The translations under genes and the position numbers were made by a program. 64,000 nucleotides of DNA, taken from the NCBI GenBank assembly GCA_016201275.1, contig JACQDB010000114.1, forward strand, positions 32,111-96,110, given 5' to 3'. Positions 569 through 48,679 of this stretch are shown here, piece by piece. The stretch's first letter is position 1, and each line of letters opens with the position of its first letter. Source of the stretch: Acidobacteriota bacterium (GTDB lineage Bacteria > Acidobacteriota > Blastocatellia > UBA7656). The notes below the pieces were generated by a model, which was given only the letters and a program-made list of their open reading frames with translations, had not been told where the DNA came from and did no database searches.

Positions 569-717
569 AAATGAATGTCCATGTCATAAGAGAACCAAAT
601 GTCCAATTCATTCTATTATGTCTGCCGCTCCCTGACAAAAAAAATTGATCGGCTGACCCCTGTGGCGCTCATTTCTTGCGATTGACTAGAGAAAGGTATA
701 GAGGTTAAGAAACAGGA

Positions 718-786
718 GTTTGGAGGTCCGCCTACAGGCGGCAGATTGCGACTGCGAAGCCTGCCGCCTGTAGGCGGACCTCCAAA
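718..786. repeat. 27-bp-arm perfect palindrome (agtttggaggtccgcctacaggcggcag / ctgccgcctgtaggcggacctccaaac) in divergent intergenic region
   Basis: Read directly; right arm is exact reverse complement of left arm, 15-nt loop. Confidence 0.9.
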
Positions 787-835
787 CCCCGCTTCTCCTT
801 TTTCCAGAAACAAGCAGAGGCATAAGGTAAATCAG

Positions 836-1450: not shown

Positions 1451-1862
1451 AGCCAAGCTCCGTTCTATGGAGCAAAAGAAGAAAACGAAAGCAGGCAAAA
1501 CATAACCTGAAGGGAGAAATTTTCATGCTACAGTGGTTGATGATTCGCAGACCTATAAATCGGCAGCGCTGGTAAGTTGCAGCGCCAAAGGTCGCCTCTG
1601 ATTCGTCCAATCCGCCTGATCCGCCTGATCCGCCGAATCCGTGTTCCCTCCGCAAGGCCCTAGCGAAGCTTGCTTTTTTCGCGGCGAAACGGTTGCACAC
1701 GGCGGTGCTGTCCTCTGCCGGAGTTTCTCAGAAGAGGCGCGTCGCCGCCCACTAATTTTTTTGTGTGGTTGCAAGCGCTTTTAATTTCGATTATTTTATC
1801 TGTTTAGAAAGTGAGAGAGAATCCGTATTGACTCACGTAAATCAAGGCTCAACCATACAACC

Positions 1863-5780: not shown

Positions 5781-8231
5781 ATGAATGAATTCAGTGATAG
5801 CACCCCAAGCGACGTTGTTCGATGCCCTATGGTTCCGATTCGGGACGTAGTGGTTTTTCCTTATACGATGGTCGCCTTTGTCATCGGCAGACCGGCCAGT
5901 GTGCGCGCTCTGGAAATCGCTTTGCGCGGCGACAAGACCATCTTTCTGGCCAGCCAGCACGACGCCACCGTTGACGAACCCGATATTGATCAGGTTTACA
6001 ACATCGGCACCATCGCACGCATCACCCACAACCTGCGCTTGCCCGATGGCAACATCAAAGTGATGGTCGAAGGCATTGAACGGGCGCGTGCGGTGCGCGT
6101 CGAAGATGAAGATGGCTACTGGCAGGCGACGGTTCGCAAAGCGCCGCAAGTCAGTGAATCGCGGGCGCGCTTGAACGCCTTGATCGGGCGCGTGGGATCG
6201 CTGGTTGATCAATATGTTCGTCAGTCAACCGACTTGGCCAATCCCGAAACCGTCACCGCCGCTTTACGCATTGATGACCCAGCGCGTTTGTGCGACACCG
6301 TGGCCTCGAATTTGAAGTTGTCGGTCGAAGACAAACAAGGGTTGTTGGAAATCTTCCCGCTGTATGAACGGCTGGTGCGTTTGACCGAAGTGCTGGAAGT
6401 CGAACTGGAAAAAATTCAGGTTGACCGCGCCATTCACGGGCGCGTCAAACGCCAGATGGAACGCGCTCAGAAAGAGTATTATCTCAACGAAAAAATCAAA
6501 GCCATTCACAAAGAGTTGGGGCGCAAAGACGAAAAGGCCGAACTCGAAGAGTTGAAGCAGAAGATCGAAGCGGCAGGCTTGCCGAAAGACGCTTATGATA
6601 AGGCTATGGCCGAGCTTCGGCGTTTGGAACAGATGCCGCCGATGTCTGCCGAATCAACCGTCTCGCGCACCTATCTGGATTGGCTGCTCGCCGTTCCCTG
6701 GCAGGACAAGAGCGAAGAGTTGCGCGACATCAAAGCGGCGCAGGAAATTTTGGACGACGATCATTATGGCCTGGATAAAATTAAAGAGCGCATCATCGAA
6801 TACTTGGCGGTGCGCCAACTTGTAGAGCGTCCGAAAGGTTCTATACTCTGTTTTGTTGGCCCCCCGGGAGTCGGCAAAACCAGTCTCGGTCGTTCGATTG
6901 CCAAAGCCACAGGCCGCCATTTCGTGCGCCTTTCGTTAGGCGGTGTGCGCGATGAAGCCGAGATTCGCGGCCATCGTCGCACCTACATAGGCGCACTGCC
7001 GGGACAAATTATTCAGATGGTGAAGAAGGCCGGTACGGTCAATCCGCTCATCCTGCTGGATGAAGTAGATAAACTCGGCATGGATTTTCGCGGCGACCCG
7101 TCATCGGCCTTGCTGGAAGTTTTAGACCCCGAACAGAACTTTACCTTCCACGATCATTATCTCGATGTCGAATATGATTTATCCAACGTGATGTTCATAG
7201 CGACGGCCAATGTCCTGCACACCATTCCTCCGGCGCTGCAAGATCGCTTGGAAACTTTGCGCTTGCCCGGTTACACCGAACGCGAAAAGCTGGAGATTGC
7301 CAAACAGCATTTGCTGCCGAAACAACTGGAAGCCAATGGCCTGACCAAAGAGCAGGTCGAGTTTACCGAAGACGGCTTCAAGGCCATCATTCAACATTAC
7401 ACACGCGAAGCCGGTGTGCGAAATCTTGAACGCGAAATTTCTTCGGTCTTGAGAAAGATCGCCCGCAAATTATTGACCTCCGATGACGCCGAACATTACA
7501 GCGTCGTCATTACTGGCGAGGTGGTCAAAGAATTATTGGGTCCCATCAAATTCCGTCCGCAATCTCTGGCTGCTGAAAACGAAGTTGGCTTGGCAACCGG
7601 CATGGCATGGACGGAAGTCGGCGGCGAGATTCTGCACATCGAAGCCTCTTTGATGAAAGGTCGTGGCCAGATCAAACTCACCGGCAAACTCGGCGAAGTG
7701 ATGCAGGAATCGGCACACGCGGCCTTGACCTGTGTGCGCGCTCGCGCTGATCGCTTGGGCGTCAAGGCCGATTTTTATAAGAAGTTTGATTTGCATCTGC
7801 ACGTACCGGAAGGCGCGATTCCCAAAGATGGCCCGTCGGCAGGCATCGCCATTTCGACAGCGCTGGTTTCGGTGCTGACCGGCATACCGATTCGCAACGA
7901 CGTAGCGATGACCGGCGAGATTACCTTGCGCGGCAAAGTCTTGCCGATTGGCGGTGTCAAAGAGAAATTGCTGGCCGCACATCGTTCGGGCATTACCACG
8001 ATTATTCTTCCGAAGGACAACGGCAAAGACTTGGTTGAATTGCCGGAAGATATTAAACAGGCGCTGACCATTCACGAAGTTGATGATGTTGATCAGGTCT
8101 GGCGCATTGCTCTGGAAGATGACCCGATTCAACGGCATCTGGAAAAATTGAAGAGCGAGCCGTTGACGCCTGAACTGCCGATTTGGAGTCAACCGCCGAC
8201 GGGCGATGCCGCCAATCAGATTTTGGAATAG
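5781..8231 (+). CDS. lon: ATP-dependent Lon protease
   Basis: LON N-domain, AAA+ Walker A GPPGVGKTS, C-terminal Ser-Lys dyad motif PKDGPSAGIA; 816 aa. Confidence 0.95.
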   Translation: MNEFSDSTPSDVVRCPMVPIRDVVVFPYTMVAFVIGRPASVRALEIALRGDKTIFLASQHDATVDEPDIDQVYNIGTIARITHNLRLPDGNIKVMVEGIERARAVRVEDEDGYWQATVRKAPQVSESRARLNALIGRVGSLVDQYVRQSTDLANPETVTAALRIDDPARLCDTVASNLKLSVEDKQGLLEIFPLYERLVRLTEVLEVELEKIQVDRAIHGRVKRQMERAQKEYYLNEKIKAIHKELGRKDEKAELEELKQKIEAAGLPKDAYDKAMAELRRLEQMPPMSAESTVSRTYLDWLLAVPWQDKSEELRDIKAAQEILDDDHYGLDKIKERIIEYLAVRQLVERPKGSILCFVGPPGVGKTSLGRSIAKATGRHFVRLSLGGVRDEAEIRGHRRTYIGALPGQIIQMVKKAGTVNPLILLDEVDKLGMDFRGDPSSALLEVLDPEQNFTFHDHYLDVEYDLSNVMFIATANVLHTIPPALQDRLETLRLPGYTEREKLEIAKQHLLPKQLEANGLTKEQVEFTEDGFKAIIQHYTREAGVRNLEREISSVLRKIARKLLTSDDAEHYSVVITGEVVKELLGPIKFRPQSLAAENEVGLATGMAWTEVGGEILHIEASLMKGRGQIKLTGKLGEVMQESAHAALTCVRARADRLGVKADFYKKFDLHLHVPEGAIPKDGPSAGIAISTALVSVLTGIPIRNDVAMTGEITLRGKVLPIGGVKEKLLAAHRSGITTIILPKDNGKDLVELPEDIKQALTIHEVDDVDQVWRIALEDDPIQRHLEKLKSEPLTPELPIWSQPPTGDAANQILE

Positions 8232-8260
8232 TCCGTAGCCCGTAGTCCGTAGCCCGTAGC
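8232..8260. repeat. tandem heptamer repeat (Y)CCGTAG x4
   Basis: tccgtagcccgtagtccgtagcccgtagc read directly after lon stop. Confidence 0.9.
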
Positions 8261-8326
8261 TGTTTTTTGAACTCCCTGAAAGTGGCTCCTGTAGCCGGTT
8301 TCAAGGTTTCCTGTCAAACAGCGAGT

Positions 8327-8357
8327 GACGAAGGACGAAGGACGAAGGACGAAGGAC
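8327..8357. repeat. tandem heptamer repeat GACGAAG x4.5 immediately upstream of engB start
   Basis: gacgaaggacgaaggacgaaggacgaaggac read directly. Confidence 0.9.
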
Positions 8358-8358
8358 T

Positions 8359-8940
8359 ATGAAGGTAACGAGCGCAGAGTTTATCAAGAGCGCCACCGCG
8401 CCGGAGCATTATCCGCTGGACCGCCGCCGCGAAGTCGCTTTTATGGGGCGCTCGAATGTCGGCAAATCGAGTTTGCTCAACAGTCTGTTGGGCGTGAAGG
8501 GGTTGGCGCGCACCAGTTCGACACCGGGACGCACCCAACTGATTAATTTCTTTCTGATTAATCAGGCGTTCTACTTCGTGGACTTGCCGGGATATGGGTA
8601 CGCCCGCGTGCCAACGGAAATCAAAAACGAGTGGGGACCGATGATTGAAAAATATCTGGCGTCCCGTGACAATCTGGTGTTATCTATAGCGATTATTGAT
8701 GCGCGACATGGCCCTACCAAGCTTGACCTCATGTTGAAAGAGTGGCTGGAGACCAATGACAAACCGTTCATCGTAGTTGCTACGAAAGCCGACAAATTGA
8801 GCAATAATAAATTAAGTGCCAGTATGAAAAGTGCGGAAGAGAGTTTGGGGAAAGGCCGTGTCATTCCCTATTCCGCGATCACCCGTCGCGGTGCTGACCG
8901 CATCTGGAAAGAGATCGCGGCGCGAACTCTTTCCCGTTGA
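8359..8940 (+). CDS. engB: ribosome biogenesis GTP-binding protein EngB/YihA/YsxC
   Basis: G1 GRSNVGKSSLLN, G3 DLPGYG, G4 TKADK motifs; ~190 aa; conserved position after lon. Confidence 0.85.
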   Translation: MKVTSAEFIKSATAPEHYPLDRRREVAFMGRSNVGKSSLLNSLLGVKGLARTSSTPGRTQLINFFLINQAFYFVDLPGYGYARVPTEIKNEWGPMIEKYLASRDNLVLSIAIIDARHGPTKLDLMLKEWLETNDKPFIVVATKADKLSNNKLSASMKSAEESLGKGRVIPYSAITRRGADRIWKEIAARTLSR

Positions 8941-9153
8941 CCAGTGCAGGTTGCAGATGGCGGATGCCTGACTTTCCCAATCCGCATTCACCGGAATCCA
9001 GCCTGAAACCACACGGTATAGCCATTGACAAAGTGTACCGTTTCTCGCTCTACAATCTGCACCGGATGACTTATCCCTGTAACCAAACTCCCTGCCGTGA
9101 GGCGCAACTCAGGAAGGCGCACGCGGCTAAAAAATCGTGAGGATAGAAAAATT

Positions 9154-10428: not shown

Positions 10429-10794
10429 CGCAAAAGAGGTAGGCGTTGCGCCTGTCTGGCGGCAATATCTTTTGCCAGTCCCCGCGTTTTTTGGGCGGCT
10501 TGAAATTTCAGGCCGCCTGAAAAACGCTTTCGTTTTTGACTTCGCTGTTCTCTTTGTCGTCACCACGAAACTGACACGCGGTTGAGAGGCGGTCTATGAC
10601 TTCCGCCGTGCGGTCAGCGACCGCTGCTCAACAAGCCTGCCGCACCAATGAAAGACGAGCGCGCATTGCCATGAATCAAGCCCCTTGAGGCGTCTTGAGT
10701 GGTGCAAAGATGGGGCTGGAAAAAGTGAACCCGACAATGCAGCGCGACGAGTATGATGCGTCGAGGCCAGCGCTTCGACATACTGCGAAAGGGT

Positions 10795-10903
10795 TACTAG
10801 AGCGTGTCGCAGAAATGAATGTTTTGTCCAGATATTGTGTGTGATGGTTTAATCATCTACAACATATAGACGGTTGCTGGGATTCTGCGACACGCTCTAA
10901 CTA
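10795..10903. repeat. 17-20 bp inverted repeats (tagagcgtgtcgcagaa / ttctgcgacacgctcta) enclosing ~68 bp AT-rich spacer; MITE-like or structured RNA
   Basis: Arms are exact reverse complements over 17 nt. Confidence 0.7.
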
Positions 10904-10933: not shown

Positions 10934-10998
10934 GCGGCGGTGCCGCTTTGAGGTGCGGAGAGTCCGAGGCTCTCCGCACCTCAAAGCGGCACCGCCGC
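10934..10998. repeat. ~29-bp-stem perfect palindrome (gcggcggtgccgctttgaggtgcggagag ... ctctccgcacctcaaagcggcaccgccgc)
   Basis: Read directly; exact reverse-complement arms with short loop. Confidence 0.9.
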
Positions 10999-11279: not shown

Positions 11280-11708
11280 ATGTCACAAACCGTCACCCTG
11301 AATTTGCCGGATGATTTTTTTCAGCCGCTTCGCCGTGCAGCGGTGGCGACCAATCAAACCATAGAAGAGACGTTATTGACGGCGTTGCAGGCTTCGCTGC
11401 CATCGCTTGAGGGCTTGCCGGAAGAGCTGATCGAACAATTGATTGCGCTGGAATTGCTCGATGATGAATCACTCCGGCAGGTGATGATGGAGATAGTGCC
11501 GTCCGACCAACAGCAAAAAATTCATGAGTTGTTGGCACGCCATCAAGACCACAACTTATCGGATGAAGAGGGCGCAAGGCTGACGGAGTTGCAGCACCAA
11601 GCCGATCTGGTCATGCTTCGCAAAGCTCATGCAGCATCGCTGTTGCGTTTTCGTGGCAAGCGCCTGCCGACACTTGCCGAACTGCAACCCTCCACGGATA
11701 TTTCGTGA
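11280..11708 (+). CDS. hypothetical protein, possible ribbon-helix-helix-like small regulator/antitoxin candidate
   Basis: Strong AGGAGA SD before ATG 11280; N-terminus TVTLNLPDDFFQPLRRAA resembles RHH beta-strand + helix; stop overlaps start of HNH gene. Confidence 0.5.
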   Translation: MSQTVTLNLPDDFFQPLRRAAVATNQTIEETLLTALQASLPSLEGLPEELIEQLIALELLDDESLRQVMMEIVPSDQQQKIHELLARHQDHNLSDEEGARLTELQHQADLVMLRKAHAASLLRFRGKRLPTLAELQPSTDIS

Positions 11709-12142
11709 TGAAGCGTGCGCGTCGAAAAATTCCTGCGGCGCTGGAGCGAAAACTCCGCCAACAGGGACGCAATCGCTGCGGCTATTGTTTGTCGAGCGAA
11801 GTGCTGATCGGGATGCCTATGGAAATCGAGCATCTGCTTCCTGTGGCGTCCGGTGGGCAGAGCGTAGAAGCCAACTTATGGCTCTGTTGTCGGCGTTGTA
11901 ACGAATTCAAGGGCGCGCAGACGCAGGGCATTGATCCGCATACTTTGGATACGGTAGCGCTCTTTAATCCACGGGAGCAGGTATGGAGCGAACACTTCCA
12001 ATGGAGTGAAGACGGTACGGAAATCATTGGTCAAACGCCAAGCGGACGCGCCACTGTGATCGCTCTCAAATTGAACAACTCCATCATTGTCGTTACCCGC
12101 AGACAATGGGCCAGCGTAGGCTGGTTTCCTCCCACTGAATGA
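11708..12142 (+). CDS. HNH endonuclease family protein
   Basis: CGYC...EIEHLLPVASGG...NLWLCCRRCNEFK matches HNH motif (CxxC, His, Asn, CxxC); start overlaps upstream stop (TGATG). Confidence 0.8.
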   Translation: MKRARRKIPAALERKLRQQGRNRCGYCLSSEVLIGMPMEIEHLLPVASGGQSVEANLWLCCRRCNEFKGAQTQGIDPHTLDTVALFNPREQVWSEHFQWSEDGTEIIGQTPSGRATVIALKLNNSIIVVTRRQWASVGWFPPTE

Positions 12143-21303: not shown

Positions 21304-24141
21304 TTAGTCCTTCTTGCGCGACAGAATTTCGATGCCGCTCATCAAGCCTGCGCCGAACATCAAGCCTTCAATAGCGCCGAAGAGAATTTCGCGGGCGTGC
21401 TTCAAACTGTCGGTGCTGAAATATGGCGCTAAGGGTTCCATGCGGATTTGCGAACCGGCGAAGGAACGTGCGATCACTTCCAGGCTGCCGCTGAAGAGAT
21501 TGCCGCCAATCACGGTTAATAAAATGCCCGCGCCCATCGCTCCTAATGCCGCGCCTAACACTCTTTGAAAAGGGCGCGAGTCCTTAATTAATTGGGTTGC
21601 CAGGACTGCGCCTAATGATAATCCCGCGCCGATAACCGCGCCTTCCAGCGCCCCTGTGATACCGCTTGGCGCACGCCCAAAGACCGCACGAATAATGTCC
21701 ACGCCTAAAAGATTGGTGATGCCGCCGACGGTTGCGCCGCCTGCCGCGCCGCCTATCACTGCCCACCAACGACTGTGCCGATAGGTGATGTGCGAGGCGG
21801 CTACCATGCCGTAGCTGACGCCCAGACCACCGATGCCGCCGATGAAAGCACCCAGGCTGATGATGACAAACATCAACGAAGCCGCTTCGATTGCCGTGGT
21901 GTGGCGAGCGATGGCCAGCGCCAGCCCCAGCATCACGCCGCCAACTAAACCGGAACCGGCTGCGCCCAGCGTGCCGCCTATGCCTTGTCGTAAAATCGCC
22001 TGCCCACCTCTGAGCAGGCGCACCCACATCAAACCGCCGACTACCAACAGACTCACCGGCGCAGCCAGATGCGGCAAGCGGATCAAACGTTTGTCATAAT
22101 CGCGTATCATCGCCAAAGAGATGGCGCGGCGAATGGTTCCGACTTTTTTGCGGTCGTGCGCTTCTGCCGAATCTGCCAGAACCTTGGCCACCTCGGTTTG
22201 AAAGCACTCGGCGAGCGCGATGCTGGCGGCTTTTCGCACCGCCAGTTCGTCGTCCCACAAAGCAAGATGGCGCAGCAACTCTTGGCTCTGTTGAGCTGGC
22301 ACATAAAGACAGGCGGCAATGGCGCACAAGCGAATTTCCGCGTCCGGCTGGCGCGCCGCTTCTTGAATCAACGCCGCCAGCGAAGGCGCGCCTGCGGCTA
22401 ACCATTGCGGCACGCTGCGTCCGCGATAGATCAAACTGGTTGCTAGTAAATCGGCCTCTTCGCCGGTCAAGCCAAGTTGATTGCCGAACGGCAACAACAC
22501 TTCGAGAGCGTCAACATCTATGAGCAATTGATGGGCGTGGAAATTTTCCATAGCGCGTTCCAGCACCCGCCGTGCTTGCTTCAAAGCGCGTTCATCTTCG
22601 CTCAACCAGCGCGACACTTCCGGCGTCAGAAAATCGTGCGCCAGTTCCAACCACGCTTCGCCGTCCTGATTCCTGCGCCGCACCACACGCGCCGCCACCA
22701 ACTCTTCGATCAAGGCGCTGACGGTGGACGCCGAGGGCTGCTGATTTTGCACTCGCGTTTCTACCCTTGCAGCGCGCAACACCAGTCGCCGCCCGTCAGC
22801 GGCAATCAAAGCTGTCAGTATCGCTTTGGCGATTTGCAATTCGGTGGCGTTGAACCGGCGCAAGACGCGCTCTAAATACCCGGCCAGAATTTGCGAAGCC
22901 GTCCCCAGCGCTTCATAGGCCGCCAGCGTCAAATGGCCGGTCGCATCTTTGGCGTCGAAGAGACAATCGCAGACGATTTGCAATTGCGGCGGGTCAACGC
23001 TGTGTTGATCGCTCAAATCATCGAGCAGGCGTTCGACCAGCGCCGTTGCAAATTGACAACCGACAGCGCGTGCCGGTTCGGTGATGGCGCGTGCCGCCTG
23101 TGCGCGGGGCAAACGCTTGAGGCGATATTCGTGATGAAAAATTTCCGGCAGAGCGATTTTGAATTGACTCATCTCGGCGAGAAAATCTTCGCGCAAGGCA
23201 AAGACGAATTTCACCGGCAGTGGTTCGGCGGCAGCTAAACAGCGCAAGGCTTCGATGAATTGTTGATGACTCGCTTCGTCCAGCAGCGAGAAGAACTCTT
23301 CAAACTGATCGAGAAAAAAGATGACAAAACTATTCGGCGTGTGGCGCGTTGCCTGCTCCAATAGGTCTTTCAATTGCGCCGCCTGCGCTTGCGGCGCGAA
23401 GCCATTTTCCGAAACGGCAACAGACGCTTCAATCCCGGCCTCTTCGAGGGCTTTGAGCATTTGATGCAGCGGGTCTGTGAAGCTGCGAATGACGAAGACC
23501 TGATGGCCTGCGGCTTTCAAACGCGGCAGCACACCGGCGCGCAGCACAGAGCTTTTGCCGACTCCCGAACGCCCGTGCAGTATGAAGGAACGCCGTGCCA
23601 GAATCTGCGAGCCGATTAATTCGATTTCCGTTTCACGTCCGAAAAAAAGCTCGCTGTCCTGCTCGGTGAAGTAGTCCAGAAATTTATACGGTCGTGGTGC
23701 AACCAGCCCTTGGTTTGGCGTTGCGCCTTCCGGCAATGACGGCGGACTGGCGTTGCTGACAGCGGCGCTGGCAAAGAGCGTTTCGCCGTGACTGGCAATC
23801 GTGTTAGCGATGAAGATGTAGCCGTGTTTGGGAACGGTTTTGATGTAGCGCGGATGGGCGGCGTCATCGCCAAGTTGCTTACGAATATCTTTGATACATT
23901 GCGTAAGCGCGGCATCGCTGACAAAGACGCCTTTCCAGATTTCCTCGAAGATGCGTTGTTTTTCGACAAGCTGTCCGGCTTCGCTGACCAGCAGCAACAG
24001 TACATCGAAGTATTTTGAGTTGAGCGGCAGCGGCGCGCTGTGGCGTCGCAATTGCCGATTGGCAACGTCAACGAAAAAGTCGTCGAAGTGATACCCTGTC
24101 GCCTGCATTCTGACTTGGCTCATGAAGTTTGATTTTCTCAC
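21304..24141 (-). CDS. multidomain regulator: OmpR/CadC-type winged-helix DNA-binding domain + STAND/AAA P-loop NTPase + HEAT-like repeats + C-terminal Gly-rich multi-TM region
   Basis: N-term trans_reg_C-like (FEEIWKGVFVSDAALTQCIKDIRKQL...YIKTVPKHGYIF), FFGRETE...GRSGVGKSS Walker A and hhhhD Walker B (FFLDQFEEF), HEAT-like helical repeats, ~6 TM helices at C-terminus. Confidence 0.7.
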   Translation of the reverse strand: MRKSNFMSQVRMQATGYHFDDFFVDVANRQLRRHSAPLPLNSKYFDVLLLLVSEAGQLVEKQRIFEEIWKGVFVSDAALTQCIKDIRKQLGDDAAHPRYIKTVPKHGYIFIANTIASHGETLFASAAVSNASPPSLPEGATPNQGLVAPRPYKFLDYFTEQDSELFFGRETEIELIGSQILARRSFILHGRSGVGKSSVLRAGVLPRLKAAGHQVFVIRSFTDPLHQMLKALEEAGIEASVAVSENGFAPQAQAAQLKDLLEQATRHTPNSFVIFFLDQFEEFFSLLDEASHQQFIEALRCLAAAEPLPVKFVFALREDFLAEMSQFKIALPEIFHHEYRLKRLPRAQAARAITEPARAVGCQFATALVERLLDDLSDQHSVDPPQLQIVCDCLFDAKDATGHLTLAAYEALGTASQILAGYLERVLRRFNATELQIAKAILTALIAADGRRLVLRAARVETRVQNQQPSASTVSALIEELVAARVVRRRNQDGEAWLELAHDFLTPEVSRWLSEDERALKQARRVLERAMENFHAHQLLIDVDALEVLLPFGNQLGLTGEEADLLATSLIYRGRSVPQWLAAGAPSLAALIQEAARQPDAEIRLCAIAACLYVPAQQSQELLRHLALWDDELAVRKAASIALAECFQTEVAKVLADSAEAHDRKKVGTIRRAISLAMIRDYDKRLIRLPHLAAPVSLLVVGGLMWVRLLRGGQAILRQGIGGTLGAAGSGLVGGVMLGLALAIARHTTAIEAASLMFVIISLGAFIGGIGGLGVSYGMVAASHITYRHSRWWAVIGGAAGGATVGGITNLLGVDIIRAVFGRAPSGITGALEGAVIGAGLSLGAVLATQLIKDSRPFQRVLGAALGAMGAGILLTVIGGNLFSGSLEVIARSFAGSQIRMEPLAPYFSTDSLKHAREILFGAIEGLMFGAGLMSGIEILSRKKD

Positions 24142-24236: not shown

Positions 24237-24785
24237 ATGGAAAAATTCATGAGTATGAAATTCAAACCGTATGCTATCACAGCCGCCGCCTTGGTGGGGA
24301 TTGGGCTGCTGTTGGCCACCTATGCCGGGTTGAATCGGCGCAATCAAACCGTAGGCTTGAATCAGGAGATTCAATATGACGATTTCGGCTTCGCGGTGTT
24401 GGGGACGGTGAAGGCCAATGCGGTCGGCGGCTATGCGACGCAGCACAGCACCGAGGGGCAATTTTATCTGGTGACTTTGAAAGTGACGAATCACGCTCAG
24501 AGGGTAAATTACCGCTTCAACAAAAGCGCCGCTATACTGGTAGATGAAAGCGGCAGAGAGTATCCGATTTCCAGCGTCGGGCAAAAAGCTCTGGACGGCG
24601 AAACAACGCCAAGCGGAGGATGCGAATCTGAGCTTCCGCCCGGCGCTTCGTGTGTCGCCGATCTGGTGTTCGAGTTGCCGAAAGCGGCGCGCCTCGCCTA
24701 TGTGCGAATCTCCGAAGGCGGCGCGGTGGGCGATGTGCTGGACACGATTTTTTATGGCAAGAAGATGATTAAAGTAGGGGAGTGA
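24237..24785 (+). CDS. membrane-anchored hypothetical protein (DUF4352-like beta-sandwich, tentative)
   Basis: Single N-terminal TM (YAITAAALVGIGLLLATYA) then soluble domain; start uncertain (ORF track 24129). Confidence 0.5.
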   Translation: MEKFMSMKFKPYAITAAALVGIGLLLATYAGLNRRNQTVGLNQEIQYDDFGFAVLGTVKANAVGGYATQHSTEGQFYLVTLKVTNHAQRVNYRFNKSAAILVDESGREYPISSVGQKALDGETTPSGGCESELPPGASCVADLVFELPKAARLAYVRISEGGAVGDVLDTIFYGKKMIKVGE

Positions 24786-24910
24786 GGGAGTGGGGAGTAG
24801 GGGAGAAGGGGAGAAGATGCGATGGCGGAGTGGGAAAAAGTTGCGATGAAGAATTTTTCGACTGATAAAAAATCTCCTCCACTCCCGTACTCCTCCATTC
24901 CCCTACTCAC
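24782..24910. repeat. imperfect hairpin built from GGGGAG(W) heptamer-like repeats with complementary C-rich arm; contains G-quadruplex motif
   Basis: gggagtggggagtaggggagaaggggagaag ... ctcctccactcccgtactcctccattcccctactcac. Confidence 0.8.
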
Positions 24911-38900: not shown

Positions 38901-41900
38901 TCAATCCGGTCATCGAATTCGGCATAGGCTTGTCGTTAGGCGTCGGCAAAACCATTAATGAAGGCGTCTTTTCGGCGGGTGCATCGGTCACCGTGCAGGG
39001 CATATTGCAGGGCGTATTGGGATGGTTCAACCCGAACGACAACGCCTTGCCCAAAGAGATGTACTACTGGATTCAAGGGACGATTTCCATCGTCGGCAAA
39101 GTTTATGGCACTGTGGATTTCGTGATTATTTCGGTCAGCATCTCGATTACCGTTTATGCCAGCGCGACCTTGACCATCGAATGTTATCAGCCGATTTTAA
39201 TCAGCCTGTCGGCAGGTGTGTCGGTGACCGCAAGCGTCAAGATTCTCTTCATACGCATACATTTTTCGTTTTCGATGCAGATCAATTTATCGTTCACCAT
39301 CGGCCACGCTTCGCCGACGCCGTGGATTAAAGCGTCTTCCGGCGGACAACAGTTGCAGCAGGCCAAAGCGATGTCGGCCAGTCGTGCGGTGTTGAAAGCC
39401 GCATCGTTTATGGCCGTCTCTTCGACCTCGTATTCGCTGGTGTGGAATCCGGTCAATGTGTTCGGCGGCACTTCCTACACCTTGCAGATGTTCATCGTTC
39501 CGGCCTTCACCGTCGCCGTGCAGGAGTGCATAGCCAATCCCATCACCACGCCGCAGGTGCAGGCGGTGATGCTGCCTTTTGTCGAGAACAGCTTGCCCAC
39601 TACGCCCACTTCGTCAAAAGACATACGCACCATCAACAGCGACACCGCCAGCGAACTGCCGTTCAATCGCCTCGCACACGCATTGCTGGCGTGGTCTATT
39701 TATGCTTTGACGCAAGGCAACAGCACCACTATCAAAGCCGATGGATTGGATTACATCTATGACCAGATGATGGCGGATGATGCAGGAGAAACGATCTTCG
39801 CTTATCAAGGTTCGACGATTTATCAAAATCTCTCGAACTTCATCGGCAACAACTTCACGTTTCAGATCACCGGCACTTCCGACAGTTCGCAAAACGCGAT
39901 GAGCGCTACCATCTTCCCCATCATGCCGGATTTGGTGATGACCGCCGGAAACAACGCGCCGATTGATTTCAGCCTCTTCAATCAGGTTGACCAGAATTAT
40001 GAAGAGCAGCTTGCCGAATATTTCAAAGAGCGCATGGCCAACGCCGACGCCAACAACGCCCAAGACCCGCTGGCCGATCAAAATGGTTCCTCACTGATGT
40101 TGCAATCGTCGAATGAACCCGCCGAAGAATCTTTGGCGACGGTCATCTTCAAAGACTATTTTTTCATGGTTGCCAAAGCTGGCATACAGGCGGCGCAGGA
40201 TGCCATGAACACCTATCAATATGCCGTGCAGTCGGGCGATAAATTGACCACCATCGTTGACAATTTCCCCAGCGGCGCAACCACAGTCGAACAGCTTGCC
40301 GTAGCCAATGCCGATGTCACGCTCCAACAAAATACTTTGTTGACCAATATTGGTTTGTTGTATGGCGACAGCCAAACACCTGTAGTCAAATATCAAATCA
40401 AGAGCGGCGATACCTTGGCCTCCATCGCCGCGAGTTTCAACGGCAACACCGGCATCGTCACGCAGAACCTGAGCAACGATTCGATCTTCCAGTTGACCGC
40501 CGTGGTCAACTATCCGGCGTCGCAATACACCACGCAAAGCGGCGACACGCTTGATTTCGTAGCCGCTTATTATCTGGTTCGCAATCTGGAAAATGGCAGT
40601 CAAAGAGACCTGCGCTGGTTCACGCAATTAATCATTGACTCGAATAACAGCGTGGATTTCCGCTTGCCTCTGACGAATGGAGCGACTTTGCAGATGCCGC
40701 AATTTACGGTCAACCCGCAAGGTCTCGTGGTGCTGGGCAACAACACGACCTACATAGTGCAATCGGGTGACACGCTCGCTTCGATTGCCGAAGCGAATTT
40801 GAATGCGATAGCCGCGTCGTTGAATTTGACGCCGCAATCGTTCGCCATTGATCCGGTCTTCGGTTGGTTCGAGCAGGCAATTGTGGCGCTCAGTTCGCAG
40901 AACGCCAATAATCAAAACGTAGATTTTACGGGCATTTTGCCGTTCGGCACGGTGATGACCATTCCGGTGATTCAATTGACTTCGGCAGGTGTCATTCAAC
41001 CGCCCAACAATCCTACGTTCAATTACACTTCGCGCAACGGTGACACCGTTGGTTTAATCGCCGGGTATTTCCTGTTGACGCAGGTCGAGCAGAGTCTGTT
41101 GACGCCTATGGAAACCAACATCAAGAACGCCAACCCCGGCGCGACCTTCAGCCCGCTGCCCGCTACGCTCAACATTCCTATGCTGCAACATCAGATTGAT
41201 CCTGCCGATTCGTTCGCTATTCTCGAAACGCTGTTCGACACTACGGTTGATGTGGCGACGGCGAATAATCAATCAGCGGGACTCTTAACGCCGCTGGCGA
41301 TTCTCGATATTCCCAACGTCACGCACCCAATAGCAGCGGGTGAAACGCTCACCAAAATCGCCGCGATTTACAACTTCACGGTTGACGATTTCGCCGTGAT
41401 GATTGAAGACGTAGAAAATATATTTGTCGCATCAACTGCCGAGACGCCTGCTTACATCACCATTCCGGCATTGCAGGAAATCAATATTCAAGAGTTGTTG
41501 ACTTATATGGTGAACAACGGCGATTTCAATAATATGGCGGGAATGGTGTCGCGCTTTATGCTGCACGGTATGCGAATCCCGCAACCGCCGCCCGCAGGCG
41601 AACAACTCAACCTCACCATTCAACATTTCAAAGACGGCTTGGTTGACACAGGCACGCTCTGCCCGTTGTATCAAATGACTGGGCAACAGTTCGCCGCGCC
41701 GCCAAGCGTACCGGAATCTTACGACATCACTTTCGTCAACAAAGGGCAGGCGAGTTGGATCGAATTTTTACCGACCGGCACTTATACGTTGCCAAGTGAA
41801 CAGACGTTGGCGCAGATTGCTCAAACGCTTGGTGTGCCTGCGCCGCAGATTGTTGCCTTAAATCCGAATGTTGATTTCAACCAACCGGTTCCGCAAGGCA

Positions 41901-44900
41901 CGTTGTTGAATGTGCCGTCCGGCTCGCTGGTCGTGCAATTGACCAGCACCACGCCGAACGATTATCCCAGCGCGACGTTTTCGCCCAATATTCAAAGCGG
42001 CCCTTCGCCTATGGTGCTGGCGCAGGAAGCTCCGGCGCGTTATTCGCTCACGCAAAATTATGCGTGGCAGGTTCCCGACAATTCTTTGTTTGCCGGTCAA
42101 GGCAGCGGTCAACTCGCAGGGCAGCCGAGTATGTGGCTGTTCCCCGATAACCTGTTGTCGAAAGTTGAAGCCCTCGCGAGTCCGACGCAATTTGATTTGC
42201 AGACCGGCTCATACACGACCGGCGCAGTGATGAATACCACGCCGGTGCAGGCGTATTACTGGGCGACGGCTTTGAAAGTCAACATACGACAGATTGATTC
42301 GGAAGCCACCAAAGCCACTATGCCTGGTAGTTATTTGGTTCTCGGTTCCGACCAGGCGGGTAACGATTTGCTGCGCGAAGTCTATGACTATTTGACGACG
42401 CCGAAACAGACCGACAAAGCGACTTTGTATCTGCTTTATCAACCGAATCCTGCCAGCGCCAACAGCAACGGGCTGGCGTCGGACCTACTCGACACCACCA
42501 ATACCTTTGTCTTGAAGACCAATCTTTCGACGGAAACGCACAGCGGCCCACAGCTACTGATGGCAAGCGAGATGGTTTTGGAAGCCAACATCGCCGCGCC
42601 AGTTCCCGAATCGGGCGACTATTATGCCAACATCGCCGCGTCGCAAGATTTCATGCAATTCCTCTGGCAGGCCAGCATCGTCGGCACCGGCGGATTCTAT
42701 TTGAACTACGCCACACAAAGCGGCGGCATAGGGCTTCCCGGCAGCGTCTTTTCCAACGGCACGGATGCGACCTTGTGGCTGGTCATACTGCTCAGTTCGC
42801 AGACCACACCCGGCGCTACACAACATCAGGTCTATTCGTTCAACAACTGCGCCATCATTGACGACAACATCAACACCTCGAAAGTCAATCTGTTTGCCGA
42901 ACGCACCGATGGCACAGATTTGGTTCCTTACACCACCGTTGCGGCTGGCAATCTGGGCTTTGAATTGACGCGCCCGAATCCCGATCAAGCGCCCGAATCG
43001 CCTACGCAATTGACTCAGGCTCTGTATAACCTTCTGGGTTTTGAAATCGTCGGCGACACGCTGTTTTCCGACAGCGGCGAAATGCCTCCGGTAGGGCCAA
43101 CCCAGGACGACCCGAACAGCAGCGGCGGCATGGCGTTGCCGCAAAACGCCAGCACCGACGACACCACCTGGCGCTTTCAACAGGTCGTGCCGATTTATAA
43201 ATTCGCCTTGTTGAACAATGTGCCGCAGGTCTCTGGGCTGCCCAGTCCCACAGAAAATCCGTATGCCGGTATCACCAAAATTTTGTCCGGCCAGCAATAC
43301 AATTTAGGCAGCGCCACGTTCAGCTTCGCGTTTCAGGATGTCTATGGAAATCGCACGCCGCCCGATGTGCCGATCAATAATCTGCCCATTCCCGTGGGCT
43401 ATTTCGACACCATCATAGGCTTGTCGCAATGGCCGGGTACGGCTTCGACGTTTGAATTTACCGGCGCAGGTGGCAAGCCGATTTTGAATATTGAAATCGG
43501 CCTGGACATCTCGAAGTACGTTCCCAACGCGGGCAACCCTTATACCAACGCCGTCTATAGCGCGAGTTCGCATCAGCAACGCTACAAGCAGCTTTATTAT
43601 CAGGTGCAACAGAAACAGATCAGCGGACAGACCGAGACCTATGATTTGACGTTCTATTTAAGCACCACGATGAGCCAGCAATCATCGTCCGTGTTGCCGA
43701 CGCGCTACGAAATTGAACCCAGATATTTGCTGTCCAATTTCATCAACTCGGCTTATGTGTTTTTGAACACCGCGATGTGGTGGCGCGCTTACAATTATTC
43801 GCTCAATGCGAACGACACGTTTGCGACCATTGCCAAAACTTTCTTCGGCGTGGATGCGGGCAGCGACCCGGCGACGCTCGAAGCGATTGCCACGGCCAAT
43901 CAAAACACGGCGGTCGCCAACTTCCTCGCTTCCGATATAGCGATTCCCAATTTCTATGTTGTCGCGCAGGGAGACAGTTTGCAAACTATCAATGAACGCA
44001 CCGGGTTTGCCATTGATACCTTGGTGCAGCAAAACGAAAGCGCGCCGCTCAATGCCGGAACCGACATCGCTTTGCCCAATCGCACCGTGACGTTGCAATT
44101 CACCGACGATACTGACAACACGCTGGCCAATGTAGCGGCTTCGGCAAACGTGCTGGCAACCGTAGGTGGCTTGGCGGTTGCCAATCTTACCTCAGCCAGT
44201 TTGTTAGCCAAAGACACGCCGTTCACCTATCAAGGCTTCACTGTGAAAATCGGCGACACGGTTGGCACTTCGACCATTCAGACGTTTCAGGATTTGGTCA
44301 ACTATTTCGCCAACGCCTTGCAGGGCAAAAACGTCAGCGTCACCGCCGAAGACATTGCCGTTGCCAATCAAACCGTGCAGGGCGTCTTTGTTGAAGGCGC
44401 GACCTTGACGATTGCCGACTATGTTTTTCAAACCGGCGACACCATTGAAAGTGTCCTCGCTTATTTCAAACCCTATCCGCAAATTGGCCTTGAACAACTC
44501 ATCAGCACGGTCAGTCAAGGCGTGCCGAATTCTGCGTTGCCGAATTATTTTGCCGCAGGAACTCCTCTCTATCTCAATTCCACTACGCAATCGTTCAGCG
44601 ACACCGACACGCTGGTTTCGATAGCCGCAGAAAATCATCTGACCTTGCAGCAACTGGCGTTTTACAATGCCGGAACCGCTTTGAAGGAGACTGCCTCGCT
44701 GACCATTCCGAATCTGGTTTACATTGAACCGAATCTGGGGCGGTTCTATTCGTTCTATGAAACGACGGGCAGCGAAACCTTCCAGCAAATCGCCCAACTG
44801 TTCAACGCACAGGTCAGCGATATGGCCAACGACAATCAAAATCAAACGGGAATCTTTGCGCCGCAACAGACCATCAAGATTATTGAAAACAGCAAACCCT

Positions 44901-48593: not shown

Positions 48594-48679
48594 GCCGCAC
48601 GTTCATTTCGAGTGATGCCTTGAAACTGGCTCTGGTAGCCGGTTTCGTGTCGCGGTGTGTTCACCTGCCTAACGCTTCC
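48594..48679. repeat. dispersed structured repeat family, copy R2 (modules ccgcacGttcatttcgagt / tgaaactggctcYgtagccggtttc / cctaacgcttcc)
   Basis: Shares modules with 8271-8310, 49945-50135, 51131-51368. Confidence 0.8.

What the first reader, a model, noticed from the sequence alone, without database searches (positions are those of the whole stretch)
8232..8357. Genome-signature intergenic elements built from locus-specific tandem heptamer repeats
Different intergenic regions carry 4-5 tandem copies of a different heptamer each. Examples are YCCGTAG and GACGAAG (lon-engB), GGTTAYT (rpoB-rpoC), GATTGCG (rplJ-rplL), CACGAAG-like (30790-30863) and GGGGAGW (24782-24910). Four of the five loci are followed by their reverse complement so they fold into long imperfect hairpins. 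This is reminiscent of cyanobacterial STRR heptamer repeats but with locus-specific units. It may mark an unusual terminator/attenuator architecture or a replication-slippage-prone repeat class.
Basis: seen in the sequence. Interest (0 to 1): 0.5.

Follow-up and report, generated by a model that had tools for sequence, protein, structure and literature searches.

The report
Heptamer-repeat hairpins between Acidobacteriota genes
The spacers between genes in this soil acidobacterium carry short runs of a 7-base unit, usually followed by the same run inverted to form a long hairpin; this is a real, lineage-wide feature that closely resembles heptamer repeats already described in Xanthomonas and cyanobacteria, whose function is still unknown.

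Summary
The repeats are real. The window has 5 strict period-7 arrays, against 0.04 expected in shuffles of the window and 0.002 in shuffled spacers. None lies in 56.6 kb of coding DNA. Four of the five listed loci fold into long hairpins (z -6 to -11).

Three corrections:
- 30789-30863 has period 9, not 7.
- 24773-24908 is an irregular 7/8 repeat.
- Units are not strictly locus-specific. GGTTAYT recurs at nusG-rplK in the same genome, and unit families recur across species.

The organism is a Blastocatellia acidobacterium. Period-7 arrays are 6-20 times denser in Acidobacteriota loci than in other phyla. Twenty-six of 43 long inverted repeats there have 7-nt periodic arms.

In the rplJ-rplL-rpoB-rpoC operon, relatives carry such hairpins at the same spacers with different units. 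The hairpins start within 13 nt of the stop codon and leave the next Shine-Dalgarno free. A hairpin-less relative has a 20-nt spacer instead. Arrays are 3-6 units long, and the G-rich arm comes first in 24 of 28.

Best reading: locally generated, fast-turnover heptamer microsatellite palindromes that are read through in mRNA. As a class they are not terminators. They match the Xanthomonas GGGAATC pairs and STRR-like repeats, so this is a new member of a known but functionally unexplained kind.

The parts
8229..8260 (+). Array A: (TAGTCCG TAGCCCG)x2.2, period 7. Its first TAG is the lon stop codon (8229-8231).
   Evidence: lon identified by Pfam
8261..8326 (+). Centre of the lon-engB spacer. 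It contains a REP-like palindromic element (8275-8306, CCTGAAAGTGGCTCCTGTAGCCGGTTTCAAGG) that also occurs at 48618-48650, 50072-50104, 51301-51332 and in the rplK-rplA spacer.
8327..8357 (+). Array B: GACGAAG x4.4, perfect. It ends 1 nt before the engB ATG (8359). GAAGGA lies at Shine-Dalgarno distance. The outer GGACTAT pairs with ATAGTCC at the lon stop codon.
8941..9010 (+). Decayed heptamer hairpin (GCAGGTT GCAGATG GCGGATG ... CAATCCG CATTCAC) directly after the engB stop codon. It is orthologous to clear CGGATTG hairpins in relatives L083-L086.
24773..24817 (+). 5' arm: irregular 7/8-nt G-rich repeat (GGGGAGW). The TGA stop codon of the DUF4352 gene (24783-24785) lies inside it. It has runs of G3-4 with G-quadruplex potential.
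24874..24908 (+). 3' arm, reverse complement of 24773-24817. It is followed by a T-rich tail and then the uppS ribosome-binding site.
30789..30863 (+). Hairpin whose arms have period 9 (CACGAAGNN / CTTCGTGNT), not 7. It has a T-rich tail. It is a related architecture with a different period.
57805..57900 (-). rpoB-rpoC intercistronic hairpin. In sense orientation it reads (TTAYTGG)x5, a 36-nt loop with its own small stem, then (CCARTAA)x4. It starts 3 nt after the rpoB stop codon and ends 10 nt before the rpoC ATG, leaving GGAGGG free. There is no U-tract.
   Evidence: MFE -52.8 kcal/mol, z -8.2
63306..63436 (-). rplJ-rplL hairpin. In sense orientation it reads (GATTGCR)x5 ... (CAATCYG)x5, with a GGACGC/GCGTCC outer clamp. 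It starts 8 nt after the rplJ stop codon.
   Evidence: MFE -58.5 kcal/mol, z -7.5
63970..64000 (-). 3' arm and ribosome-binding-site side of the rplA-rplJ heptamer hairpin (GGTGTTA / TAACACC), cut off by the end of the window. The full element is seen in L163.

Best explanation
These are heptanucleotide microsatellite palindromes, a class of STRR-like long simple-sequence repeats. Each consists of a short array (3-6 units, median 4.4) of a 7-nt unit. In about two thirds of cases an inverted array of the same unit follows 5-66 nt downstream.

What is shown:
- They are a lineage trait of Acidobacteriota, especially Blastocatellia.
- They are confined to non-coding DNA.
- They sit at the same spacers in different species but with different, internally homogeneous units.
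- They begin at or within 13 nt of the upstream stop codon and leave the downstream Shine-Dalgarno unpaired.
- Their arms pair in several 7-nt registers.
- The G/T-rich arm is almost always the 5' arm.

What is inferred:
- They arise and turn over in place by slipped-strand tandem duplication in 7-nt steps, seeded from the local sequence at gene ends. Often the seed is a small palindrome spanning stop codon to start codon.
- Template switching between the arms, or selection for pairing, keeps the two arms alike.
- They persist because a self-closing stem leaves the effective stop-to-ribosome-binding-site distance unchanged at 13-31 nt, as in hairpin-less relatives.
- In the polycistronic mRNA they are read-through stem-loops. 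Their most likely effect is REP-like: a barrier to 3'-5' exonucleases, or a processing site.
- They are not terminators, except possibly the few that have U-rich tails.
For: - Enrichment and restriction to non-coding DNA.
- Lineage specificity: 11.7, 6.7 and 20 arrays per 100 kb in the Acidobacteriota sets, against 0.9-1.1 in other phyla, with no other period enriched.
- Of 43 long inverted repeats in about 430 kb of Acidobacteriota loci, 26 have period-7 arms.
- Same spacers, different units: the rpoB-rpoC unit is TTAYTGG in the window, GTGATTC in L003, GGTCATT in L004, GGTCTTT in L005, GAGTCNN in L025, GCGGAWT in L030 and AGTRAGC in L032.
- L067 lacks the hairpin and has a 20-nt spacer with the same flanks.
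- The stop-to-arm distance is -1 to 13 nt in all 14 stop-adjacent cases, and the Shine-Dalgarno is left free.
- Local seeding:
  - The lon TAG is part of the first unit.
  - The outer ATAGTCC/GGACTAT are complementary, and relatives have a 30-nt spacer of (ATAGGTCCT)x3.
  - The arrays run into the C-terminal codons of engB in L084-L086.
  - In L006 a 12-nt duplication includes the rpoB stop codon.
- Copy number differs among relatives whose engB is 87-90% identical.
- Multi-register complementarity: 0.85 in register against 0.74-0.79 when shifted by 7 nt.
- No terminator calls, and no U-tract at rpoB-rpoC.
- The same syndrome is described for Xanthomonas, and polymerase slippage has been proposed to explain the excess of heptamers.
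Against: - No strain-level length polymorphism could be observed, because the only same-strain contigs are identical. Slippage is therefore inferred, not seen.
- Pure local slippage does not predict three observations:
  - the restricted unit repertoire (13 identical unit pairs against 0.68 expected);
  - reuse of one unit at two loci in the same genome;
  - the narrow length range of 3-6 units together with the G-first polarity, 24 of 28, p about 2e-4.
  These three point to some selection or to a directed generating process.
- Persistence of hairpins at the same operon positions across a class-level divergence is also what selection for an RNA structure would give.
- Why the step is 7 nt remains unexplained.
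Confidence: 0.5

Rival explanations
1. Selected RNA stem-loops that punctuate operons. The hairpin is kept because, in the transcript, it protects the upstream cistron from 3' exonucleases, provides an RNase III-type processing site, and/or brings the stop codon next to the following ribosome-binding site so that translation stays coupled. The 7-nt periodicity would only be the route by which such stems grow.
For: - Hairpins occupy the same intercistronic positions in many species although their sequence is replaced.
- They start at the stop codon and stop short of the Shine-Dalgarno.
- In lon-engB the basal stem pairs the stop codon with the AU of the start codon, and relatives have no Shine-Dalgarno there.
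- Stems of about 26-31 bp in a narrow size range would suit a double-strand-specific RNase.
- Three of the 4 rif-cluster spacers in the window carry one, against about 4 of the other 27 spacers.
Against: - There is no sense-strand signature. Counts are 21 G:U-type against 14 A:C-type mismatches, and sense against antisense stability gives p = 0.2.
- Arrays occur in co-directional, convergent and divergent spacers in proportion to the available sequence: 15/6/3 against 126/27/31 (crude gene calls).
- Some close relatives do without the hairpin (L067, L007, L012).
- About a third of arrays have no inverted partner.
Confidence: 0.25
2. Arrays of binding sites for a sequence-specific, multimeric DNA- or RNA-binding protein, such as a global regulator, a nucleoid protein, or an S1/Csp/CsrA-like factor. 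This has been proposed for the Geobacter and Beggiatoaceae heptamer arrays.
For: - The unit repertoire is restricted, with families such as CGGATTG, GGGATGA, GTGACRA and GGTTAYN recurring in different species and loci.
- The copy number is fairly constant at about 4.
- There are literature precedents for this interpretation.
Against: - At least ten unrelated unit families coexist, and five or more occur in this genome alone.
- The unit at a given orthologous spacer is replaced between species.
- When paired, the sites are buried in a duplex.
- No candidate protein was identified.
Confidence: 0.08
3. Miniature mobile elements (MITE/REPIN-like) whose terminal inverted repeats happen to be heptamer arrays, spread by a transposase encoded elsewhere in the genome.
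For: - The nusG-rplK and rpoB-rpoC hairpins of the same genome share their outer roughly 12-17 nt on both arms.
- The same unit is found at several loci within L003 and L030.
- A genuinely dispersed REP-like element sits inside the lon-engB spacer.
Against: - Loops and copy numbers differ between loci that share a unit.
- No target-site duplications were seen, and there are no near-identical full-length copies in 64 kb.
- Units look derived from the local flanks.
- No Y1 (IS200/IS605-type) transposase was found among the 20 window ORFs scanned against Pfam.
Confidence: 0.07
4. Intrinsic terminators or attenuators of an unusual long-stem type.
For: - T-rich tails follow the hairpins that end at 24908 and 30863.
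- The elements sit just after stop codons.
Against: - No terminator-consensus call was made at any locus.
- rpoB-rpoC and nusG-rplK lack U-tracts, and rpoC has no room for its own promoter.
- In rplJ-rplL a separate, conserved small hairpin plus T-run follows the heptamer hairpin.
Confidence: 0.05

Closest known systems
Xanthomonas GGGAATC (and Nostoc GGGGAYT) heptamer repeats (Rehm et al. 2015, PMC4692102)
   Same: - Intergenic tandem heptamers, mostly 4 units.
- Very often two arrays in convergent (G-rich arm first) inverted orientation that could form stem-loops.
- Closer to the upstream ORF than to the downstream one.
- Position conserved but length variable between related species.
- Transcribed.
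Sources: compared.
   Different: - Xanthomonas has essentially one G3-tract unit with G-quadruplex potential, and arrays reach 26 units.
- Here many unit families coexist, most have no G-tracts, and arrays never exceed about 6 units.
- The phylum is different.
Cyanobacterial STRR (short tandemly repeated repetitive heptamers; Calothrix/Nostoc)
   Same: Tandem heptanucleotides dispersed in non-coding DNA as a lineage signature, with function unknown (and my own knowledge of Mazel et al. 1990).
   Different: - STRR are defined by a few genome-wide units (CCCCAGT, TTGGTCA, CAACAGT) in heterocystous cyanobacteria.
- Here the units differ; only chance-level near-matches were found.
- Here the inverted-pair hairpin is the rule.
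Long simple-sequence repeats of 5-11 nt with a heptamer excess (Mrazek et al. 2007, as summarised in PMC4679880 and PMC4692102)
   Same: A statistically over-long tandem repeat class dominated by 7-nt units and excluded from coding DNA. Polymerase slippage is the proposed cause.
   Different: That survey, as summarised in those papers, did not single out Acidobacteria. No paper linking heptamer repeats to Acidobacteria was found in the library.
Beggiatoaceae TAACTGA direct repeats (MacGregor 2015, PMC4679880)
   Same: Heptamer arrays of 2-6 copies inside ribosomal-protein and translation operons, next to start codons. They were interpreted as post-transcriptional elements.
   Different: There a single unit is used, almost always as direct repeats (one inverted case), and positioned just upstream of start codons rather than after stop codons.
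REP/BIME/REPIN extragenic palindromes
   Same: Intergenic, transcribed, stable stem-loops just downstream of stop codons, often inside operons. This is the best functional analogy: mRNA 3' protection, and effects on the upstream cistron when the element lies within about 15 nt of the stop codon (my own knowledge).
   Different: REPs are hundreds of near-identical copies spread by RAYT transposases and have no internal 7-nt periodicity. Here each hairpin has its own loop and, mostly, its own unit.
Geobacter metallireducens hepta-/octanucleotide repeat elements (Aklujkar et al. 2009, PMC2700814)
   Same: Four to five tandem heptamers, some as pairs on opposite strands, dispersed between genes.
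   Different: They are multicopy families with one consensus each (GGACCGG, MTYCTGA), and were interpreted as regulator binding sites or RNA elements.

Membership tests
Heptanucleotide long SSRs (Mrazek-type LSSR) | Head-to-tail repeats of a 5-11-nt unit, longer than expected from composition | tested here: met
   5 arrays against 0.04 (window shuffles) and 0.002 (spacer shuffles)
Heptanucleotide long SSRs (Mrazek-type LSSR) | Period 7 predominates, and arrays are excluded from coding DNA | tested here: met
   Period 7 gives 32 arrays, against 0-5 for any other period, in the Blastocatellia-like loci. There are 0 in 56.6 kb of coding sequence.
Xanthomonas-type inverted heptamer pairs | Two arrays of the same unit close together in convergent (G-rich arm first) orientation | tested here: met
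   26 of 43 long inverted repeats are heptamer-periodic. In 24 of 28 the G-rich arm comes first.
Xanthomonas-type inverted heptamer pairs | About 4 units, lying nearer the upstream ORF | tested here: met
   Median 4.4 units, range 2.6-5.7. The 5' arm starts -1 to 13 nt from the stop codon.
Xanthomonas-type inverted heptamer pairs | One dominant G3-tract unit able to form G-quadruplexes | tested here: not met
   There are many unit families. Only GGGGAGW (24773-24817) and the GGGATGA arrays carry G3+ tracts.
Cyanobacterial STRR | Units STRR1-3 (CCCCAGT, TTGGTCA, CAACAGT) repeated genome-wide | tested here: not met
   No array matches STRR1 or STRR3. There are only near-matches (1 mismatch or fewer) to STRR2, at roughly chance level.
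Cyanobacterial STRR | Occurrence in (heterocystous) cyanobacteria | tested here: not met
   The closest relatives are Blastocatellia/Pyrinomonadaceae genomes assembled from metagenomes. rpoC is unsplit at 1407 aa.
Intrinsic terminators | Short GC-rich stem, loop of 3-8 nt, U-tract directly after the stem | tested here: not met
   The scan calls none at the five loci. Loops are 21-97 nt. There is no U-tract at rpoB-rpoC. T-rich tails follow only at 24908 and 30863.
REP/REPIN | Many near-identical copies of one palindrome per genome | tested here: not met
   Within the window, each heptamer unit family occurs at a single locus. A different element in the window (8275-8306 and three more copies) does behave like a REP.
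REP/REPIN | Associated RAYT (Y1 transposase) gene | tested here: inconclusive
   None was found among the 20 window ORFs scanned against Pfam. The rest of the genome was not available.
MITE | Terminal inverted repeats plus target-site duplication, with conserved full-length copies | tested here: not met
   No duplications flank the hairpins. Loops differ between loci that share a unit.
Known structured RNA families (Rfam 15) | Score at or above a family's gathering threshold | tested here: not met
   Only tRNA-Leu passes the threshold. The hairpins give sub-threshold matches to plant miRNA-precursor models only.

The most novel reading that the evidence does not exclude
The heptamer palindromes may not be passive microsatellites. 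They could be the product of a directed process shared by distant phyla (Acidobacteriota, Xanthomonas, cyanobacteria). For example, G-rich reiterative extension of both 3' ends at a break in a small intergenic palindrome, followed by rejoining, would give G-first inverted arrays with locally seeded units and a bounded length. Alternatively, they could be the substrate of a dedicated enzyme or RNA-processing system that punctuates operons. Either way, their polarity, their roughly 4-unit length and their restricted unit repertoire would be functional signatures that finally explain the long-noted excess of heptamers in bacterial genomes.
Probability: 0.12. Interest if true: 0.7.

Novelty: new member of a known kind. 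Interest (0 to 1): 0.36.

Why it matters
The excess of heptanucleotide repeats in bacterial genomes has been noted since 1990 and 2007, but it has no accepted cause or function. This case adds a whole phylum in which such repeats are the dominant kind of long intergenic hairpin.

It also offers an unusually clean comparative system. The same positions in a universally conserved, essential operon (rplJ-rplL-rpoB-rpoC) carry hairpins with different units in different species, and some close relatives lack them. That makes several questions directly testable in cultivable Blastocatellia:
- Is there +/-7-nt polymorphism?
- Why is the polarity G-first?
- Are the hairpins read through, or do they terminate transcription?
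- Do they affect the downstream cistron?

There is a practical point as well. These arrays break short-read assemblies, as shown by the Logan contigs that end inside the GACGAAG array. They also inflate ORF calls at gene ends.

Tried and rejected
1. Sense-strand RNA selection. Strand-symmetric detection of 15 periodic hairpins of known orientation gave 21 G:U-type against 14 A:C-type mismatches and no stability difference (p = 0.2). An earlier apparent bias came from defining the stems on the sense fold.
2. Polarity relative to transcription. I first read the G-first bias as a transcription polarity. I then realised that X-loop-rc(X) reads the same on both strands. The bias is real but strand-independent, and says nothing about direction.
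3. Strain-level length polymorphism. The only same-organism contigs (L001, L002, L163, L164) are identical to the window or end inside an array. A look-up of the DUF4352 protein found nothing. The metagenome scan returned no relative closer than 74%.
4. Position-specific covariation between arms. In-register complementarity is only slightly better than the shifted registers, and part of that is selection of the best diagonal.
5. Spacer-class preference (operon-internal, convergent or divergent). No bias was found, though the gene calls were crude.
6. Mobile-element (MITE) copies in the window: none.
7. Rfam and terminator/promoter scans gave nothing relevant.
8. Literature on Acidobacteria heptamers: none found. 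Elhai et al. 2008 was not available.

Full report
**Observation.** The flagged interval lies between lon (5781-8231) and an EngB-type GTPase gene (8359-8940); both were identified with Pfam. It holds two period-7 arrays.
- Array A is at 8229-8260, (TAGTCCG TAGCCCG)x2.2. Its first TAG is the lon stop codon.
- Array B is at 8327-8357, a perfect GACGAAG x4.4 that ends one base before the engB ATG.

Tandem Repeats Finder and my own lag scan also recover GGTTAYT and its reverse complement at 57805-57838 / 57868-57900, and GATTGCG and its reverse complement at 63317-63348 / 63394-63426.

Two of the listed loci need correction. The 24773-24817 / 24874-24908 pair is an irregular 7/8-nt G-rich repeat. 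The 30789-30815 / 30837-30863 pair has period 9.

Chance is excluded.
- There are five strict period-7 arrays, against 0.04 per dinucleotide shuffle of the window.
- The expectation is 0.002 per shuffle of the 31 spacers, which total 7.4 kb.
- There are none in 56.6 kb of coding sequence.

Four of the five loci are inverted pairs that fold into long hairpins: rpoB-rpoC -52.8 kcal/mol (z -8.2) and rplJ-rplL -58.5 kcal/mol (z -7.5). The lon-engB arrays are not reverse complements. They share only a periodic GTCC/GGAC match, and the fold is weak (z -3.1).

Independent Logan assemblies reproduce the rplJ-rplL element exactly. Other Logan contigs end inside the GACGAAG array.

**Organism and lineage distribution.** rplL, rpoB and rpoC are closest to Blastocatellia genomes assembled from metagenomes: rplL 81%, rpoB 86%, rpoC 88% to L003/L004.

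Density of period-7 arrays per 100 kb across the 160 fetched loci:

| Set of loci | Arrays per 100 kb |
|---|---|
| Blastocatellia-like | 11.7 |
| Other Acidobacteriota | 6.7 |
| EngB 55-63% identity set | 20 |
| Other phyla | 0.9-1.1 |

No other period from 4 to 12 is enriched in the acidobacterial sets. In the other phyla the commonest periods are 6, 9 and 12, typical of coding repeats.

In about 430 kb of Acidobacteriota sequence there are 43 long inverted repeats (arms of at least 20 nt, loop of at most 70 nt). Of these, 26 have arms with period 7, three have period 9, one has period 10, and 13 are aperiodic. Heptamer-periodic palindromes are therefore the main class of long intergenic hairpin in this lineage.

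**Comparative anatomy.** In the rplJ-rplL-rpoB-rpoC cluster, nearly every Blastocatellia/Pyrinomonadaceae locus has such a hairpin at the same spacers, but with a different unit. Some Terriglobia and unclassified Acidobacteriota loci have one too. The rpoB-rpoC units are:

| Locus | Unit |
|---|---|
| window | TTAYTGG |
| L003 | GTGATTC |
| L004 | GGTCATT |
| L005 | GGTCTTT |
| L025 | GAGTCNN |
| L030 | GCGGAWT |
| L032 | AGTRAGC |

The 5' arm starts -1 to 13 nt after the stop codon in all 14 stop-adjacent cases. At rpoB-rpoC the 3' arm ends 10-18 nt before the start codon in four loci, leaving GGAG unpaired.

L067 is a Pyrinomonadaceae locus without the hairpin. Its spacer is 20 nt (TAA AGACTTATATC GGAGAAAAG ATG), and its flanks match those around the hairpins of its relatives. 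The L007/L012 lineage lacks the arrays altogether. Once the hairpin is subtracted, the remaining spacer is 13-31 nt, similar to the hairpin-less relatives.

In the long rplJ-rplL and rplL-rpoB spacers the hairpins sit at the extreme ends, next to conserved leader and attenuator elements that are not periodic.

The same genome carries further examples just outside or at the edge of the window. One lies at nusG-rplK and has the same unit as rpoB-rpoC. Another lies at rplA-rplJ with unit GGTGTTA. A decayed example follows engB at 8941-9010.

**Signs of local generation and turnover.**
- Arrays are nearly perfect within a genome, yet the unit is replaced between species.
- The lon stop codon is part of the first unit.
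- The outermost bases of the lon-engB spacer, ATAGTCC and GGACTAT, are complementary. The nearest relatives have a 30-nt spacer made of (ATAGGTCCT)x3, or a GTGACRA hairpin that runs from the stop codon to the start codon.
- In L084-L086 the engB-rho hairpin runs into the last codons of engB and supplies its stop codon. These three loci are 87-90% identical in engB but differ in unit copy number.
- L006 has a 12-nt tandem duplication that includes the rpoB stop codon.
- The arms are complementary in several registers: 0.85 in register against 0.74-0.79 after a 7-nt shift.

**Features that simple slippage does not predict.**
- Units come from a restricted repertoire. Among 38 independent elements there are 13 identical unit pairs against 0.68 expected, and 53 pairs within one mismatch against 13 expected. 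The families include CGGATTG, GGGATGA, GTGACRA and GGTTAYN.
- Array length is narrow, at 3-6 units with a median of 4.4.
- In 24 of 28 periodic hairpins the 5' arm is the G-rich (G+T-rich) one (p about 2e-4). An inverted repeat reads the same on both strands, so this polarity is independent of strand. It says nothing about the direction of transcription.

**Tests of function.**
- There is no sense-strand signature: 21 G:U-type against 14 A:C-type mismatches, p = 0.2 for stability.
- There is no preference for co-directional, convergent or divergent spacers, with crude gene calls.
- The consensus scan calls no terminator at any of the five loci.
- The rpoB-rpoC hairpin has no U-tract and leaves no room for a promoter, so it must be read through.
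- Only the hairpins ending at 24908 and 30863 have T-rich tails.
- No Rfam family matches; there are only sub-threshold hits to plant miRNA-precursor models.
- No near-identical full-length copies or target-site duplications were seen.

**Comparison with what is known.** According to later papers, Mrazek et al. (2007) found heptanucleotides to be the most abundant long simple-sequence repeats in many bacteria, and proposed polymerase slippage as the cause.

The closest described case is Xanthomonas GGGAATC. Those repeats have mostly four units, and 70-75 pairs per genome are always in convergent orientation. They lie nearer the upstream ORF (28 nt against 160 nt). Position is conserved but length varies between species, and they are transcribed. 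Every one of those features is met here.

Other relatives:
- cyanobacterial STRR and GGGGAYT repeats;
- Beggiatoaceae TAACTGA arrays inside ribosomal-protein operons;
- Geobacter heptanucleotide elements.

What differs here is the phylum, the coexistence of many unit families, the short bounded arrays, and the occupation of fixed positions in a universal operon. I found no paper linking such repeats to Acidobacteria.

**Verdict.** The feature is real and lineage-wide. It is best explained as locally generated, rapidly turning-over heptamer microsatellite palindromes. They are tolerated because the stem closes on itself, and they probably act in mRNA as read-through, REP-like stem-loops. The slippage mechanism, the homogenisation between arms and any RNA effect are inferred, not shown. 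The polarity, the length bound and the unit repertoire remain unexplained, and they keep a functional or directed-process reading open.

Noticed in passing
window 8275-8306, 48618-48650, 50072-50104, 51301-51332; L163 1205-1245 (rplK-rplA spacer): A dispersed palindromic element of about 33 nt (CCTGAAAsTGGCTCyTGkTAGCCGGTTTCAAGG) with conserved flanks (…CATTTCGAGTGATG…). It is REP/REPIN-like. One copy sits between the two heptamer arrays of the lon-engB spacer.
   Followed up: partly
window 53321-53430: A 38-bp unit repeated 2.9 times at 98% identity, just downstream of the rpoC stop codon. Each unit contains its own small hairpin (GCGGTCAAAGACCGC).
   Followed up: no
window 53125-53206: A long hairpin whose arms have period 10 (ACACCGATAC x2), with the A/C-rich arm first. 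It has the same architecture as the heptamer hairpins but a different period and the opposite polarity.
   Followed up: partly
window 715-790, 10484-10527, 10798-10899, 10934-10998, 48848-48942: Several very stable, aperiodic long hairpins (arms of 17-30 nt, 88-100% complementary; z -6 to -13). Three of them cluster in the 827-nt spacer after rho.
   Followed up: partly
window 63265-63313 (- strand); L003 and L004 rplJ-rplL spacers: A small conserved hairpin plus T-run (GGCGTC…GACGCC TGTTTGATTTTT) directly after the heptamer hairpin. It is conserved in L003 and L004 while the heptamer hairpin is not, so it is a candidate rplL attenuator. Pyrinomonadaceae loci share another conserved structured block upstream of rplL (…GTCCCGTGGGTTCTCCTGCTGC…AGAACCC).
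   Followed up: no
window 62510-62556 and 62618-62646 (- strand): A conserved hairpin in the rpoB leader (ACGCGAAGCTCGCGGTTGGA…TCCAACCGCGCTTCGCGT), also present in L003 and L004. It is preceded by a promoter-like TTGACC-17-TAACAT and a terminator-like hairpin at 62665-62700.
   Followed up: no
L028 160-400; L006 150-225: The two inverted heptamer arrays (CAATCGG / CGATTGC) flank the whole rpmG (L33) gene, so the 'loop' of the potential stem is an entire small cistron.
   Followed up: no
L030 4830-4900; L008 342-375: Heptamer arrays (GGGATGA hairpin; TCACTCC x5) lie immediately upstream of a tRNA gene.
   Followed up: no
window 35912-48490: A single ORF of 4192 aa. It was not characterised.
   Followed up: no
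window 21304-24141 (-) and 11705-12142 (+): A 945-aa protein combining a winged-helix Trans_reg_C domain with an nSTAND1 NTPase domain, and a small HNH endonuclease ORF next to the hairpin-rich spacer.
   Followed up: no
window 1610-1641: A 9-nt tandem repeat (ATCCGCCTG x2.8-3.7) upstream of tRNA-Leu (1863-1944).
   Followed up: no
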